Part shown: positions 15,650-39,994 of the stretch, piece by piece | Layout of the letters: each line of letters opens with the position of its first letter | Numbering within the stretch: the first letter of the stretch is position 1 | Virus record (IMG/VR): IMGVR_UViG_3300014204_000111 | Span: 64,001 to 128,000 of that record | Strand: one strand, 5' to 3' | Source of the DNA: a virus | Lineage: Duplodnaviria > Caudoviricetes | Length of the DNA stretch: 64,000 bases | Notes under the pieces: generated by a model | Database searches by the model: none | Told to the model about the DNA's origin: nothing | The model's input: only the letters and a program-made list of their open reading frames with translations | Position numbers and translations under genes: made by a program

Positions 15650-15929
15650 GCCCAGGTGGTGAAATTGGCAAACACAAGGGACTTACATAAAATTGAGCGT
15701 ATATAAAGGAATTTATATATGGATGTCGCCTAATTCGGTGAAACCTAAGTCAAAAGATATGGCAATACCGAGCCAAACTCTAATAAGAGAAGTGTGTAGA
15801 GACTATACAGCGACCATCCAGAACGGATGAAGATAGAGTCCAGACCCCAAACTTAACAGGTAGAGAAATCTATGGTGGTATGAAAATCCCTCGGCTTCGG
15901 TCTTACGGGTTCGATTCCCGTCCTGGGCA
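15650..15929 (+). tRNA. tRNA-Leu(UAA) interrupted by a group I intron
   Basis: Exon 1 15650-15684 ends GGGACTT; exon 2 15883-15929 starts AAAATCCC; GCCCAGG/CCTGGGC acceptor. Confidence 0.93.
15685..15882 (+). mobile_element. Group I intron (IC3, trnL-type), 198 nt, no ORF
   Basis: P AATTCGGTGAAAC, Q GGCAATACCGAGCC, R GTGTAGAGACTA, S AAGATAGAGTCC; terminal G; inserted after U34 as in cyanobacterial/plastid trnL. Confidence 0.92.
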
Positions 15930-16143
15930 TTTATTTTAAATTAGGAGATAATTATGGAGAAATCTTGTTGGTGGATAGAAGGTGGATTATGTTATTTAGA
16001 GCATAATCGTAGAAATACTACAGATGGACGTTCATGTGTTAAATGTAATGGTGTATGTAAGGGTTATATTTCTAAAAGAGAATTTCTTTCACAGTTTATT
16101 CCAAGTGATAAATTGATAATTATGAGCGAGGAAAGTAATATAA

Positions 16144-19744: not shown

Positions 19745-19831
19745 GGGAGAGCGTTGGAGTTAGAGAGCCAAGACAGACTGTAAATCTGTTCCCTTCGGGG
19801 TGAGTAGGTGCGAATCCTACCTCTCCCACCA
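19745..19831 (+). tRNA. tRNA-Tyr(GUA)
   Basis: ACAGA-CTGTAAA-TCTGT; variable arm CCCTTCGGGG; ACCA end. Confidence 0.93.
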
Positions 19832-29275: not shown

Positions 29276-29341
29276 GCTTCTGTAGTACAAAAGATAGTAT
29301 ATTGGTCTACGAAACCGAAGATGCAATTTCTTTCAGAAGCT
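29276..29341 (+). pseudogene. tRNA-Arg(ACG) with a deletion in the variable region/T stem
   Basis: GCTTCTG/CAGAAGC acceptor; TTGGT-CTACGAA-ACCGA; only 66 nt. Confidence 0.72.
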
Positions 29342-31068: not shown

Positions 31069-31148
31069 GGAAGCAAAGCTCATTTGGATTGAGCATTCGA
31101 CTTTTAATCGAAAGGTAGGTTTGGGTTCGAATCCCCCTGCTTCCACCA
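31069..31148 (+). tRNA. tRNA-Lys(UUU)
   Basis: TTCGA-CTTTTAA-TCGAA; ACCA end. Confidence 0.88.
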
Positions 31149-32321: not shown

Positions 32322-32464
32322 TGTAATTAAAAGAATTTGTTATTTTCTTAAGATAGTTATCTGGAAAAAATATAAGGAAATTGAGGGATATAAAAGTTAT
32401 CTGGTAACTATAAAAATGGTTAATCGTAACTTTGATGTAATTAAGAATTTTGAAAGGACACAAA

Positions 32465-33226
32465 ATGCAAATATTAAGTAATCAAATTTTATTTAAAGCA
32501 ATTAGTGGAAGTCATCTTTATGGATTAAACGAGGAAGGGTCAGATATAGATTATGAGGGAGTTTATATGCCATCTCCTTCTGCACTTCTAGGTATTCGTG
32601 CTCTTGAAAACGCAAAACATAGTAAGGGTACAGATGTTGATGTTACAATGTATTCTTTGCAGCAATATGGAAAGCTTTTAACAACTTCTAATTTCAAGGC
32701 TCTTGAGACTTTATTTGCTACTGAAGATAAGATTATTCAATGTACACCAGAATTTAGAGCAGCTTTTATAGACCACAAAAAGTTATTTATATCTAATGAT
32801 ATTCTTCAACCTTTACATGGTTTTGCTGTTTCTAATTTTAGTAGAATTGATAAATGTCCTTCTGATACGACCTCTCGTAGAATTTTGTTTGATAAATTAG
32901 GATATGATTCAAAATATCTTATGCATTGTGTTAGGATTTTAAAAACAGGTGTACATCTAATTACTACGGGTGAATTTAAAGTAGATTGGAGCAATGAAAG
33001 AGAATATTTTTTAGATATCAAGCATGGACGTATTTCTAAACAAAAGGCTTTGCAAGAAGCAGAAGCTTGTAAATCATTAATTCTAACTATAATGCAGCAT
33101 GGTAAAAAGGAAAATTACAATACATATAACTATGTTAATGAACAGGTTATATGTATGAGCAAAAATTGGTTGTTAAATCTAAAGCAAGCGATGACTGATT
33201 TTATGCCTCTTAATTCTGAGCAATAA
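32465..33226 (+). CDS. Pol-beta superfamily nucleotidyltransferase (RlaP/YcgL-like)
   Basis: SGSHLYGL...SDIDYEGVY; GYDSKYLMHCVR; LDIKHG. Confidence 0.85.
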   Translation: MQILSNQILFKAISGSHLYGLNEEGSDIDYEGVYMPSPSALLGIRALENAKHSKGTDVDVTMYSLQQYGKLLTTSNFKALETLFATEDKIIQCTPEFRAAFIDHKKLFISNDILQPLHGFAVSNFSRIDKCPSDTTSRRILFDKLGYDSKYLMHCVRILKTGVHLITTGEFKVDWSNEREYFLDIKHGRISKQKALQEAEACKSLILTIMQHGKKENYNTYNYVNEQVICMSKNWLLNLKQAMTDFMPLNSEQ

Positions 33227-34406
33227 AGGAGATAACTATGTTTTTAGTTTTTGTTGGCTTACTCTTTGCAGGTGTTATAGGTGCTGTTATAGCCTATGGT
33301 ATTCATGTCTTTGGCTCTTCAATTCAATATAGGTACGAAATATGGGAATATGAAGAGGAAGGATATGGAAGATTTTGGGTTCCAATGATAATTAATTATC
33401 GTCTATGGAAATCTGGAGAAACCGAAGAATGTAATAAAAATGGTTATGAATGGCTGGGGTTATTTAATTTTTCTGATAAAGATAAGATTATTGCCTCTTC
33501 AGCAGCAGATAGTCATCTTTGTGGTGGTATTATTATTTATTGGATTGATGAAGTGCCTCGTCTTAGTGAACAGCAAGCTATTGACAAAATTCATCAATAT
33601 ATCAAACAGGAACAAGATGATTATAACCATCAACATCCTAAGTTTATTTCAAAAAAGGTGATTTAAATGTGGCCTTTTAAAAGCAAGAAGAAAGATTCGA
33701 TATTACCAGATTATTCTATCAATAAGTTATTCGCTCAGATTGAGAAAGAGATGGATAAATACGAGATTATTATAGAGACTTTTAATGATGGTCGAGTACA
33801 ATTTTATTATACACACAATGGAAGTGGTTATGTATGGGGAGAGGATGAGCCAGAGAAAAGAAGAGTCAAAGGACAATCTTGTAGATGGACGGATAAAAAC
33901 GAAATGCTGGAAGATTTGAGGCAAACTATTATTAAAGCATTAAAAGGTCAATTTTCTGAGGTTAAATTATCTTCAGTGGCAGCAAAAGAGAATATTGATT
34001 ATATTCTTGGTAATATAGAATGTCAGGATAGATGTAAAATGATTGAAGGATATGTTAGAGAATTATGTTGTTCTAAGCTTGGAGCAGATGCTTTTAAAGA
34101 AGCATCAAGTGAGTAAAGAGCGTTTTCAAGGCTCTTTTTTATATGAAATTGATATTAGTTATTAATAACAAAGGAGAAATAGAAAATGTTTGGGATTATT
34201 TTTATTTCTATTTTATACTGTCTCGGAGTATATCTATGTTTATATTCATTATATACTTCTTTTAATCAAGTATCGTTGATTTCTTTTATAGTAGCATTAT
34301 TTTGGCCTCTATCTTTGATAGTTGGGATGATTATATTATTAATTTTGAAATTAAATAAATCCAGCAATTCTGTTTGAACAACGAAGCAGAGGGTATAATA
34401 AGTCAT

Positions 34407-34523
34407 GGGCGAGGGTTTGGAATCACCAGCGGAAGAGCGGAACGGATTCGACTTCCGTATACTCCATCACGGGGTATAACCGGGTTCAGCACCGCCAAGT
34501 GGGTTCGATTCCCATCTTGTCCA
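34407..34523 (+). ncRNA. 117-nt RNA with two G3:U70 acceptor/T-arm modules (tmRNA tRNA-like-domain mimic)
   Basis: Outer GGGCGAG/CTTGTCC-A with T arm GTGGG-TTCGATT-CCCAT; inner T arm ACGGA-TTCGACT-TCCGT followed by ATACTCC-ATCAC-GGGGTAT; own promoter. Confidence 0.75.
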
Positions 34524-36313: not shown

Positions 36314-36817
36314 TTATATGCTTTCGGAGATTAGAAGAGAAATAACTCCTGCTTCAACAAGTCTATGACAATTAGCACATAAAAGAACGCATTTTTTAAG
36401 TTCTTCAAAAAGAATATCTAATGACTTTCTATGCATAGAATCTGCTATGGCAAAAGATTTGGTTGAAGGGTCAATATGATGACAATCGAAAATTCTAGTA
36501 TTAATACCATCGTGTTTAATACCACAATGAACACATATTCCACCTAATTTTTCAACAATTTTTTGTTGTTTGAGTTTGTAATGCTTTCTTTTTGTAAGAG
36601 AAATATTTTGAGAATGATGTTGACGATATGCTTTTTGTTTTTCTTGTTTTTCTTGAGAGGAGATATATTTTCTACCAGAATGACCTCTTATATATTGTCT
36701 AGGTTTGCCATTGGCTCCCATTTGTGAAATAAGGTTCCCACAACCACACGCGCACTCAATTATTGGAGATTGAGCCTGTCTTTCTTTCATTTTAGTTTTT
36801 CTTTGTTGATTACTCAT
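36314..36817 (-). CDS. HNH endonuclease
   Basis: CACGCG N-terminus; LGGICVHCG..FDCHHIDP..K.F...KCVLLCANCHRLVE. Confidence 0.9.
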   Translation of the reverse strand: MSNQQRKTKMKERQAQSPIIECACGCGNLISQMGANGKPRQYIRGHSGRKYISSQEKQEKQKAYRQHHSQNISLTKRKHYKLKQQKIVEKLGGICVHCGIKHDGINTRIFDCHHIDPSTKSFAIADSMHRKSLDILFEELKKCVLLCANCHRLVEAGVISLLISESI

Positions 36818-36930
36818 AATATTATTTACCCAATTATTCTACTATTCCGAAAATTACGGAATTGTTTCTTTTCTTGTCAAGGTTAAATTTTGGTAAAATG
36901 TTTGAAATCCTGTGGTCTGGGTATAATATA

Positions 36931-37030
36931 GGGCAAGAGAGGAACAGGTTCGAGTCCTGGCCTGCGGACGAGAGAAGCGATTCTTTCTATCCGTGGTGTA
37001 AGGTAGTTTAAACGGTGAACACTCTTGCTT
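36931..37030 (+). ncRNA. Circularly permuted tRNA-like RNA
   Basis: GGGCAAGAG/CTCTTGCTT terminal stem; T arm CAGG-TTCGAGT-CCTG first; closed acceptor hairpin; D arm TA-GTTT-AAACGGT-GAAC last. Confidence 0.85.
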
Positions 37031-39583: not shown

Positions 39584-39899
39584 TATTAATAGGAGAAAAA
39601 TGATAAATGAATTTACATTATGTTGGCAGATATGATAATGGAGTTTTTACTGAATCACCTGTAAAAGAAATGTCTAAAGAAATATTTTGTGATGGAATGG
39701 GTAGTCAATGGAATTATACTTTTCGAGATATAGATTTTTTCTTTTATAGACATGGTTTTAAGATAGAAGTAGAAGATGATTTGGCTATTACAAAAATTGG
39801 AGATATCATTTATTATTTCACAATAAGTTAATTTTTGAAAGCTTGTTTGAAGTCCTGTCTATTGGGTATAATAAAGAGTGAAGGAAGGAACTCCTTTAC

Positions 39900-39994
39900 G
39901 AATAGGAGAAGCAGGATTCGATTTCCTGCCATCGCGGATGTGATGTAGTTTAGTCTGGAATACGTCTGCTAGCAAGACAGTAAAACACCTATTT
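39900..39994 (+). ncRNA. Circularly permuted tRNA-like RNA with an expanded D loop
   Basis: ATAGG/CCTAT, GCAGGA-TTCGATT-TCCTGC, CATCGC-GGAT-GTGATG, TA-GTTT...AAAC. Confidence 0.82.

What the first reader, a model, noticed from the sequence alone, without database searches (positions are those of the whole stretch)
34407..34523. Double-headed alanine-acceptor RNA resembling two tmRNA tRNA-like domains with no mRNA domain
Seen: the outer module has acceptor GGGCGAG/CTTGTCC with G3:U70 and A73, a weakly paired D region and a canonical T arm. In place of the anticodon loop is a second, permuted module: T arm ACGGA-TTCGACT-TCCGT, 3' acceptor strand ATACTCC-A, a 4-nt linker and 5' strand GGGGTAT, again G3:U70 with A73. 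It is followed by AACCGGGTTCAG, reminiscent of a tmRNA 5' end. A GCGG/CCGC helix can join the two heads. Known: G3:U70 plus A73 is the AlaRS identity set used by tmRNA, two-piece tmRNA genes have this T-arm/acceptor/linker/5'-end order, and tag-less tmRNAs occur in jakobid mitochondria. Inference: an SmpB/AlaRS/EF-Tu decoy or a tag-less ribosome-rescue RNA that could be cut into a two-piece dumbbell.
Basis: partly seen in the sequence, partly recalled or inferred. Interest (0 to 1): 0.85.

Follow-up and report, generated by a model that had tools for sequence, protein, structure and literature searches.

The report
Two-headed alanine tRNA-like phage RNA
A 117-base gene in a 221-kb phage belongs to a conserved small-RNA family not found in the papers and databases searched; it folds into two cross-paired tRNA "top halves", each carrying the signals for accepting alanine and neither having an anticodon, so it probably imitates alanine tRNA or the ribosome-rescue RNA tmRNA, though its job is untested.

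Summary
Window 34407-34523 (+) has two T arms and two nested 7-bp acceptor stems, each with G1-C72, G2-C71, G3·U70 and A73. There is no anticodon arm and no tag reading frame.

It is not a chance fold. I found about 24-27 distinct relatives in viral and metagenome contigs. None was found among one representative genome for each of 185,579 prokaryote species. All relatives on contigs long enough to show it lie inside phage tRNA arrays.

Both acceptor stems covary. RNAalifold returns exactly the nested structure. A covariance model built without the window's copy hits it end to end (53.9 bits).

New points:
- The outer acceptor stem matches the phage's own tRNA-Ala at 6 of 7 pairs.
- The inner head resembles the junction of a permuted tmRNA gene.
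- In one relative the element is a chimera of that phage's permuted tmRNA gene and its tRNA-Ala gene.
- The order of the long and short halves is swapped in some members, and CCA is sometimes encoded at the inner 3' end. Both point to a mature two-piece, doubly chargeable complex.

True tmRNA genes sit in 6 of 13 element-bearing viral records, but not in this genome. Function is untested. I found no description in the papers searched. Earlier follow-ups in this scan reported the same family on other DNA.

The parts
34374..34399 (+). Phage promoter: TTGAAC, 14 nt, TATAAT, within the recurring GGGTATAAT motif. The -10 element ends 7 nt before G1 of the RNA.
   Evidence: GGGTATAAT occurs 39 times in the window against 0.73 expected, 38 of them on the + strand. 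The same motif sits 4-9 nt before tRNA genes, for example at 1741, 26613 and 39184. The generic sigma-70 scan misses it because of the 14-nt spacer.
34407..34413 (+). Outer 5' acceptor strand GGGCGAG, pairing with 34516-34522.
   Evidence: Pairs 7 of 7 including G3:U70. Position-wise covariation in 24 relatives. Six of seven pairs are identical to the phage's tRNA-Ala acceptor GGGCGAT/ATTGTCC.
34414..34441 (+). Connector 1 (28 nt): GG-containing D-loop analogue with a possible UUGG/CCAG mini-hairpin and two GCGG repeats.
   Evidence: Relatives have 11-17 nt (short type) or 25-32 nt (long type) here.
34442..34458 (+). Inner T arm: 5 bp with a TTCGACT loop.
   Evidence: The T stem covaries in relatives.
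34459..34466 (+). Inner 3' acceptor strand ATACTCC plus discriminator A73.
   Evidence: In 4 of 24 relatives CCA is encoded directly after this A.
34467..34470 (+). Linker TCAC between the inner 3' and 5' acceptor strands; the presumed processing site.
   Evidence: In relatives the linker is 3-12 nt and not conserved in sequence.
34471..34477 (+). Inner 5' acceptor strand GGGGTAT.
   Evidence: Pairs 7 of 7 with 34459-65 including G3:U70. Covariation.
34478..34498 (+). Connector 2 (21 nt): AACCGGGUUC resembles the D-loop analogue of tmRNA 5' ends. CCGC at 34492-95 could pair with a GCGG of connector 1.
   Evidence: Rfam tmRNA_permuted alignment. Relatives show NNNUGGUNN followed by a hairpin here.
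34499..34515 (+). Outer T arm: 5 bp with a TTCGATT loop.
34516..34523 (+). Outer 3' acceptor strand CTTGTCC plus discriminator A73. No CCA is encoded.

Best explanation
The stretch is a gene for a member of a conserved family of phage small RNAs, transcribed from its own phage promoter like the neighbouring tRNA genes.

Shown:
- The RNA forms two acceptor-stem/T-arm stacks whose strands are swapped. The first 5' strand pairs with the last 3' strand. The middle 3' strand pairs with the middle 5' strand.
- Each stack has a GG-containing D-loop analogue and the full alanine identity set (G1-C72, G2-C71, G3:U70, A73).
- There is no anticodon arm in this copy and no tag reading frame.

Inferred:
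- tRNA-processing enzymes cut at both 5' G1 positions (RNase P) and trim both 3' ends. CCA is then completed on each end.
- The result is a two-piece heterodimer (about 60 + 53 nt plus CCA) held together by the two intermolecular acceptor stems.
- Host AlaRS charges both ends with alanine.

Inferred, weaker:
- The anticodon-less Ala-RNA behaves like the tRNA-like domain of tmRNA or like a non-decoding tRNA-Ala. It would engage AlaRS, EF-Tu and possibly SmpB and ribosomes with an empty A site.
- It would thereby modulate or supplement ribosome rescue during infection.

Origin: recombination between tRNA-Ala and permuted tmRNA genes. This is shown for one relative and is consistent with this copy.
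For: Structure and family:
- The nested architecture was found with an acceptor-unconstrained pattern and with family patterns in viral and metagenome contigs.
- In 24 distinct sequences, acceptor positions 4-6 pair 24 of 24 in the outer head and 24, 24 and 23 of 24 in the inner, using 3-5 pair types.
- Over positions 4-7, nested pairing averages 3.83 and 3.63 of 4. Cis pairing averages 1.25 and 1.29. Pairing between different sequences averages 1.73 and 1.62.
- RNAalifold's unconstrained consensus equals the proposed structure at -66.2 kcal/mol, of which -33.7 is covariation.
- Model R1, built from 16 relatives without the window, hits 34407-34523 full length at 53.9 bits, E 1e-13. The next hit in the window scores 25.7 bits.

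Setting:
- All 11 relatives whose loci held any ARAGORN tRNA call sit inside phage tRNA arrays.
- The window copy follows a phage promoter motif, as the tRNA genes do.

Two-piece maturation:
- CCA is encoded after the inner A73 in 4 of 24 relatives, against about 0.4 expected, and after the outer A73 in 8 of 24.
- The order of the long and short halves is S-L in most members but L-S in the window, L138 and L247. This is a circular permutation of one design.
- In L133 the first 75 nt are identical to the start of a true permuted tmRNA gene 740 nt downstream.
- RNAcofold forms both intermolecular stems in all 8 members tested. The dimer is far more stable than the monomers.

Alanine identity:
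- G3:U70 and A73 are present in both heads of all 8 near-perfect hits of the scan that did not constrain the acceptor.
- The outer acceptor equals the phage tRNA-Ala at 6 of 7 pairs, including G5:U68.
- In L133 the outer half matches that phage's tRNA-Ala 3' part at 47 of 48 nt.

Link to tmRNA:
- Partial tmRNA_permuted matches fall on the inner head here (19.8 bits) and in relatives (21-41 bits).
- True tmRNA genes are present in 6 of 13 element-bearing viral records. In L099 the tmRNA gene ends 6 nt before the element.
- A TLD-only phage RNA (DS6A) is on record as an inhibitor of tmRNA (PMC4131195, PMC11915505).
Against: - There are no expression, processing or charging data.
- The window's linker is only 4 nt, so the inner acceptor might stay closed as a loop.
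- Most of the 24 sequences came from patterns that required GGG and TCCA. Identity conservation is therefore unbiased only for the 8 near-perfect hits (7 relatives plus the window).
- The tmRNA signature motifs next to the heads (UUCGAC after the 5' strand, GGAC before the T arm) are absent or only loosely present in most members. SmpB binding is therefore uncertain.
- Coexistence with complete phage tmRNA genes, and with a phage SmpB in G007, argues against a plain trans-translation blocker.
- This genome has neither tmRNA nor SmpB, so a tmRNA partnership is not obligatory.
- Model R1 also scores unrelated two-T-arm stretches at 40-53 bits. The score alone does not prove membership.
Confidence: 0.55

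Rival explanations
1. Pure decoy or sponge. The RNA titrates SmpB, and perhaps AlaRS or EF-Tu, to shut down host trans-translation, as reported for a TLD-only RNA. Two heads would give higher avidity.
For: TLD-only RNA of mycobacteriophage DS6A, or a similar molecule, inhibits tmRNA when expressed in E. coli (PMC4131195, PMC11915505). Both heads look like TLDs without a message.
Against: Six of 13 element-bearing viral records also carry a complete tagged tmRNA, and one carries SmpB. A general blocker would disable the phage's own tmRNA. The tmRNA-type SmpB contact motifs are poorly conserved.
Confidence: 0.15
2. Decoy or buffer for host factors that attack or modify tRNA 3' ends or acceptor stems. 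Examples are nucleotidyltransferase or acetyltransferase toxins and acceptor-stem nucleases. It would form part of the phage's tRNA-protection kit.
For: The family occurs only in tRNA-rich phages.
Against: There is no conserved protein neighbour across relatives. A general acceptor decoy would not need strict alanine identity in both heads.
Confidence: 0.12
3. Non-ribosomal alanine donor. A doubly charged Ala-RNA that cannot decode would feed a tRNA-dependent aminoacyl transferase acting on cell wall, lipid or peptide.
For: It has alanine identity without an anticodon. From general knowledge, Fem-type and aminoacyl-phosphatidylglycerol enzymes accept acceptor/T-arm minihelices.
Against: No transferase gene is conserved next to the element. 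Nothing here points to such an enzyme.
Confidence: 0.06
4. Single-chain tRNA-Ala-like RNA. The inner head stays closed by its loop, as in the tRNA-like module of bacterial YrlA RNAs, and serves only as a protein-binding or stabilising module. Only the outer end would be charged.
For: The linker is 4 nt here and 3-8 nt in most relatives. The T arm - acceptor - loop - acceptor order is the YrlA topology (general knowledge).
Against: CCA is enriched at the inner 3' end, the gene order of the two halves is swapped in some members, and L133 is identical to a permuted tmRNA junction. The genome has no Ro/TROVE gene and there is no YrlA match in Rfam.
Confidence: 0.1
5. Non-functional debris of recombination between tRNA-Ala and tmRNA genes.
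For: L133 is a recent chimera of exactly these two genes.
Against: There are 24 or more divergent copies with compensatory changes in four helices and strict retention of identity nucleotides. The window copy has its own promoter.
Confidence: 0.02

Closest known systems
Permuted (two-piece) tmRNA genes (Rfam RF04321; also phage-encoded, e.g. PMC9004378)
   Same: The inner head has the same gene order: T arm, 3' acceptor strand, A73 (sometimes followed by encoded CCA), short intervening segment, 5' GGG acceptor strand, then a GG-containing D-loop analogue. It has alanine identity. In relative L133 these 75 nt are identical to a true permuted tmRNA gene.
   Different: There is no coding piece, no resume codon or tag, and no pseudoknots. 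The outer ends form a second complete acceptor/T-arm head. The score is 19.8 bits against a gathering score of 47.
CDS-less, TLD-only tmRNA forms (mycobacteriophage DS6A; jakobid and other organelle forms; PMC4131195, PMC11915505)
   Same: A tRNA-like domain with alanine identity and no message. There is a phage-encoded precedent.
   Different: Those forms have one head. This RNA has two heads, cross-paired between two halves.
tRNA-Ala and alanine minihelices
   Same: G3:U70, A73 and G2-C71 are present, with a 7-bp acceptor stem stacked on a 5-bp T stem. The outer acceptor matches the phage's own tRNA-Ala at 6 of 7 pairs.
   Different: There is no anticodon arm and no regular D arm. Rfam tRNA and ARAGORN do not call it.
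YrlA (bacterial Y RNA-like) tRNA-like module
   Same: A permuted tRNA-like module whose acceptor strands are joined by a short loop.
   Different: There is no Ro-binding stem, no Ro/TROVE gene in the genome and no Rfam match. Here the enclosing element is a second chargeable head.
T4 species 1 and 2 RNAs (rnaC, rnaD)
   Same: Stable small RNAs of unknown function encoded in a phage tRNA cluster.
   Different: Read here: at most one T arm, no crossed acceptor stems and no G3:U70 pair.

Membership tests
Two-headed alanine tRNA-like phage RNA (family defined here and in earlier notes of this scan) | Two T arms with two nested, strand-swapped 7-bp acceptor stems | tested here: met
   Both stems pair 7 of 7. 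The cis alternative pairs poorly. Model R1, built without the window, hits it full length at 53.9 bits.
Two-headed alanine tRNA-like phage RNA (family defined here and in earlier notes of this scan) | G1-C72, G2-C71, G3:U70 and A73 in both heads | tested here: met
   The same holds in the seven relatives found without acceptor constraints.
Two-headed alanine tRNA-like phage RNA (family defined here and in earlier notes of this scan) | Located among phage tRNA genes | tested here: met
   The window holds 19-21 tRNA genes and the element has its own tRNA-type promoter.
tmRNA, standard (RF00023) | tRNA-like domain with alanine identity | tested here: met
tmRNA, standard (RF00023) | mRNA-like domain with resume codon and tag reading frame; pseudoknots | tested here: not met
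   Only 49 nt of connectors lie between the helices. ARAGORN finds no tmRNA in the window or the genome. The best RF00023 score in the genome is 16 bits.
Permuted tmRNA (RF04321) | Permuted TLD junction (T arm, 3' strand, spacer, 5' strand) | tested here: met
   Partial model match over positions 36-103, with high posterior probabilities.
Permuted tmRNA (RF04321) | Score at or above gathering (47 bits) and a coding piece with a tag | tested here: not met
   19.8 bits. No match in the whole genome at E 0.001.
TLD-only (CDS-less) tmRNA | Binds SmpB and interferes with or takes part in trans-translation | not testable with these tools
   This needs binding and tagging assays. There is no SmpB gene in this genome.
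tRNA (RF00005) | Cloverleaf with anticodon arm | tested here: not met
   No tRNA call by ARAGORN or by Rfam at gathering. The only clan hit is tRNA-Sec at 20 bits with a forced alignment.
YrlA / Y RNA | Ro-binding stem and an accompanying Rsr (TROVE) gene | tested here: not met
   No Rfam match. No TROVE domain in the genome.

The most novel reading that the evidence does not exclude
The mature form is a two-piece RNA carrying two alanines. It acts on the ribosome with both ends. Either it enters a stalled ribosome twice in succession and adds a template-free Ala-Ala tail (the core of the ssrA degron) without any message, or it fills the A and P sites of the peptidyl-transferase centre at once. 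That would be the first natural RNA with two aminoacylated ends working as one unit.
Probability: 0.1. Interest if true: 0.95.

Novelty: new variant of a known kind. Interest (0 to 1): 0.78.

Why it matters
If the two ends are charged as predicted, this is a natural RNA complex with two aminoacyl-accepting ends and no decoding function. It is built from the same parts as tRNA-Ala and tmRNA, and it recurs in large tRNA-rich phages from many habitats.

It gives a concrete, small and easily synthesised object for three questions:
- How do phages interfere with or extend ribosome rescue and alanine charging?
- How do permuted tmRNA genes arise? One relative is caught as a fresh tRNA-Ala/tmRNA chimera.
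- What is the minimum that AlaRS, EF-Tu, SmpB and RNase P need in a substrate?

It also flags a class of genes that tRNA and tmRNA finders miss.

Tried and rejected
- An exact 20-mer of the element found nothing in viral contigs.
- The two flanking proteins gave no related loci.
- BLAST of the region and of two relatives against 50,697 GenBank phage records gave no match. No cultured phage carrying a member was identified.
- No RNA holder was listed among public sequencing runs for the window.
- T4 rnaC and rnaD were read and are not this family.
- MAFFT misaligns the inner 5' strand. Covariation was therefore counted on an anchor-based alignment in a script.
- Model R1 is dominated by the T arms. 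It scores unrelated tandem tRNA-like stretches at 40-53 bits, so I did not use it to enlarge the family.
- The genome contigs pattern scan gave 20 hits, all tRNA-Ala genes followed by duplicated 3' ends or tandem tRNA-like units. None was nested.
- All-against-all comparison of flanking ORFs found no conserved protein partner, only homing endonucleases and lineage-specific genes.
- A tRNA-Sec or UGA-suppressor reading (6-bp stem, loop CAUCACG, 'UCA') was rejected. It breaks the better outer stem, and the 'anticodon stem' is the covarying inner acceptor stem.
- A possible tag frame through the inner head (ending ...HHGV, stop) was rejected. It runs through conserved helices and has no counterpart in relatives.
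- Other nested two-T-arm hits with non-alanine stems (such as L038 and the L079 group) are as many as chance predicts (about 10 expected, 9 seen). I did not pursue them.

Full report
**What is there.** The window is bases 64001-128000 of a 220,861-bp viral record with direct terminal repeats and about 31% G+C. ARAGORN and Rfam tRNA genes. Neither calls anything at 34407-34523.

Read directly, the 117 nt divide as follows:
- outer 5' acceptor GGGCGAG
- a 28-nt connector
- T arm ACGGA/TTCGACT/TCCGT
- 3' acceptor ATACTCC, then A
- linker TCAC
- 5' acceptor GGGGTAT
- a 21-nt connector
- T arm GTGGG/TTCGATT/CCCAT
- 3' acceptor CTTGTCC, then A

The first 5' strand pairs with the last 3' strand. The middle 3' strand pairs with the middle 5' strand. 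Both pair 7 of 7, with G3:U70.

At relaxed threshold Rfam gives a partial tmRNA_permuted match on the inner head (19.8 bits, E 0.034). It also gives a forced tRNA-Sec alignment at 20 bits. The single-sequence fold energy is unremarkable (z = -2.0), so the case has to rest on comparison.

- Seventeen hits had nested pairing of at least 6 of 7 in both stems. My calculation from the search windows gives about 10 expected by chance.
- Eight hits had near-perfect pairing (13-14 of 14): seven relatives and the window itself. All eight read GGG...UCC-A in both heads.

Patterns that fix GGG and TCCA then collected more copies from viral and metagenome contigs. After I separated nested from tandem arrangements, 24 distinct sequences remained, plus L069 and L249 as weaker cases. 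The same pattern over one genome for each of 185,579 prokaryote species gave 20 hits. All were tRNA-Ala genes with duplicated 3' ends or tandem units. None was nested.

**Covariation.** In the 24 sequences:
- Acceptor positions 4-6 pair 24 of 24 in the outer head and 24, 24 and 23 of 24 in the inner, with three to five different pair types at each position.
- There are 17 different 5' strands for each head.
- Over positions 4-7, nested pairing averages 3.83 and 3.63 of 4. The cis alternative averages 1.25 and 1.29. Strands taken from different sequences average 1.73 and 1.62.

RNAalifold on the anchor-based alignment returns exactly the proposed structure without constraints, at -66.2 kcal/mol. 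Of that, -33.7 is the covariation term.

A covariance model built from 16 relatives without the window's copy hits 34407-34523 end to end at 53.9 bits (E about 1e-13). The next hit in the window scores 25.7 bits. That model is dominated by the T arms. It also scores unrelated two-T-arm stretches at 40-53 bits. The nested covarying stems are therefore the real evidence, not the score.

**Setting.** All 11 relatives whose loci held any ARAGORN tRNA call lie inside a phage tRNA array, often a few bases after a tRNA; the short locus L062 held none. Contigs range from 10 to 517 kb. There is no conserved protein neighbour.

In the window, the element follows a promoter of the phage's own type. GGGTATAAT occurs 39 times against 0.73 expected, almost all on the + strand. 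The -10 element ends 7 nt before G1, as it does before several tRNA genes. An RBS and ATG for the next ORF follow 7-17 nt after the 3' end, so the RNA must be cut out of a longer transcript.

**Evidence for a two-piece mature form (inferred).**
- The spacer between the inner strands is 3-12 nt and not conserved. CCA is encoded right after the inner A73 in 4 of 24 copies, against about 0.4 expected. It follows the outer A73 in 8 of 24.
- Most members have a short first half and a long second half. The short half has a connector of about 13 nt with GG. The long half has about 24 nt: NNNUGGUNN, a 4-6-bp hairpin, then 2-3 nt.
- The window, L138 and L247 have the long half first. This is a circular permutation of one design. 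It makes sense if the two processed pieces, not the precursor, are the functional unit.
- In L133 the first 75 nt, including upstream sequence, are identical to the start of a genuine permuted tmRNA gene 740 nt downstream. That gene encodes the tag AANKIVKFTRHSAPVAV. [quoted passage not shown]
- RNAcofold of the two pieces forms both intermolecular acceptor stems in all eight members tested. For L099 the dimer is -42.5 kcal/mol against -31.2 for the two monomers.

**Where the heads come from.**
- The window's outer acceptor (GGGCGAG/CUUGUCC) equals the phage's own tRNA-Ala(UGC) acceptor (GGGCGAU/AUUGUCC) at six of seven pairs, including G5:U68. The seventh pair is changed on both sides.
- In L133 the second half matches that phage's tRNA-Ala from position 26 to the 3' end at 47 of 48 nt. 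This includes the anticodon stem-loop with UGC. That element is therefore a fresh chimera of a permuted tmRNA front and a tRNA-Ala back.
- The hairpin in the long connector of other members sits where that anticodon arm is. Their loops (ACGCGCG, GCGC, GACG) are not alanine anticodon loops.
- The window's inner head and its following AACCGGGUUC align to the tmRNA_permuted model. Relatives give 21-41 bits on the same part.
- I read the family as tRNA-Ala-like on one side and tmRNA-TLD-like on the other.

**Relation to trans-translation.**
- True tagged tmRNA genes occur in 6 of the 13 element-bearing viral records. Three are standard (G009, G010, G011) and three permuted (G004, G007, G008). In L099 the tmRNA gene ends 6 nt before the element.
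- Most of the other records are fragments.
- Of the three complete genomes, two have a tmRNA. The window's genome has none and also lacks SmpB.
- Only the 517-kb record encodes SmpB.
- The element is therefore neither a replacement for a phage tmRNA nor dependent on one.
- Its frequent coexistence with tmRNA argues against a plain blocker of trans-translation. That blocker role is the one reported for the one-headed TLD-only RNA of mycobacteriophage DS6A (PMC4131195, PMC11915505).
- The tmRNA motifs UUCGAC and GGAC next to the heads are only loosely kept.

**Mechanism, with levels of support.**
- Shown: the double-headed, strand-swapped structure; alanine identity nucleotides in both heads; lack of message and anticodon in this copy; conservation in phage tRNA arrays; kinship with tRNA-Ala and permuted tmRNA.
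- Inferred with fair confidence: cutting by RNase P at both G1 positions, 3' trimming and CCA completion, and alanylation of both ends. From established knowledge, G3:U70 with A73 suffices for AlaRS even on minihelices.
- Inferred weakly: action as an anticodon-less Ala-RNA on EF-Tu, SmpB and ribosomes with an empty A site.
- Rivals: an SmpB sponge, a decoy for acceptor-end-directed host toxins, a non-ribosomal alanine donor, a single chain with a closed inner head, or recombination debris. The last is made unlikely by the covariation.

**Known or new.** Six full-text searches and two tmRNA database papers turned up one-headed CDS-less forms and phage two-piece tmRNAs, but no two-headed form. 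Rfam 15 has no family for it.

Earlier follow-up notes of this scan describe the same architecture on other genomes: e1-5367092, e1-5347828 and e1-5335918. Those notes reached similar verdicts. I reached the family independently here before reading them. I rate it a new variant of a known kind (tmRNA/tRNA-like mimics) and of high interest, because the function is open and easy to test.

Noticed in passing
window, 39 sites, e.g. 1741, 26613, 34391, 36919, 39184, 39864: GGGTATAAT, usually preceded by TTGAA 11 nt upstream, occurs 39 times against 0.73 expected, 38 times on the + strand. It is a phage-specific promoter motif that also precedes single tRNA genes by a few bases.
   Followed up: partly
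window 36929-37028 (+): A promoter-led ~100-nt RNA candidate. It has an outer stem GCAAGAG/CUCUUGC enclosing a T arm (ACAGG/TTCGAGT/CCTGG) and an acceptor-like stem closed by a hairpin. This is the topology of YrlA-type tRNA-like modules. There is no Rfam match and no TROVE gene in the genome.
   Followed up: partly
window 39874-39985 (+): A promoter-led RNA candidate. It has a stem-loop bearing TTACGAA(T), then a T arm (CAGGA/TTCGATT/TCCTG), a 3' strand CCATCGC, a short spacer and a 5' strand GTGATGT followed by D-arm-like sequence. It may be a permuted tRNA-like gene. Fold z-score is -3.4.
   Followed up: partly
window 15675-15930 (+): A group I intron (Rfam 69.8 bits) is followed by an orphan T arm and acceptor end at 15905-15929. 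This is probably a tRNA gene split by the intron.
   Followed up: no
window 19745-19831 (+); also 29276-29341 and 31069-31145: tRNA genes that ARAGORN missed. One is a long-arm tRNA-Tyr(GTA) with T loop GCGAATC. Two more are Rfam tRNA hits.
   Followed up: no
window 32450-33226 (+): An RlaP-family (RNA-repair-associated) nucleotidyltransferase lies 1.2 kb upstream of the element. An HNH homing endonuclease is at 36314-36817 (-).
   Followed up: partly
L133 5603-6614: The two-headed element and a true permuted tmRNA gene share an identical 75-nt start, including upstream sequence. They flank an ORF of ~190 aa. The element's second half matches the phage's tRNA-Ala 3' part (L133 5082-5129) at 47 of 48 nt.
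   Followed up: yes
L156 1470-1923: A permuted phage tmRNA whose 116-nt intervening segment contains two further T-arm-like hairpins closed by a 10-bp stem. This is a tRNA-like module nested inside the spacer.
   Followed up: no
L023/L101, L026, L059, L064, L068/L075, L077 (coordinates): One-headed mini RNAs in other phage tRNA arrays. Each has GGGNNNN, 9-35 nt, a T arm, NNNNUCC-A with G3:U70 and no anticodon arm. They look like TLD-only or mini tRNA-Ala genes.
   Followed up: no
L038 (rc 1292-1407); L079, L043, L063, L091: Two-T-arm stretches with apparently nested stems but non-alanine outer ends. Their number fits chance, but the L079 group recurs on four contigs.
   Followed up: no
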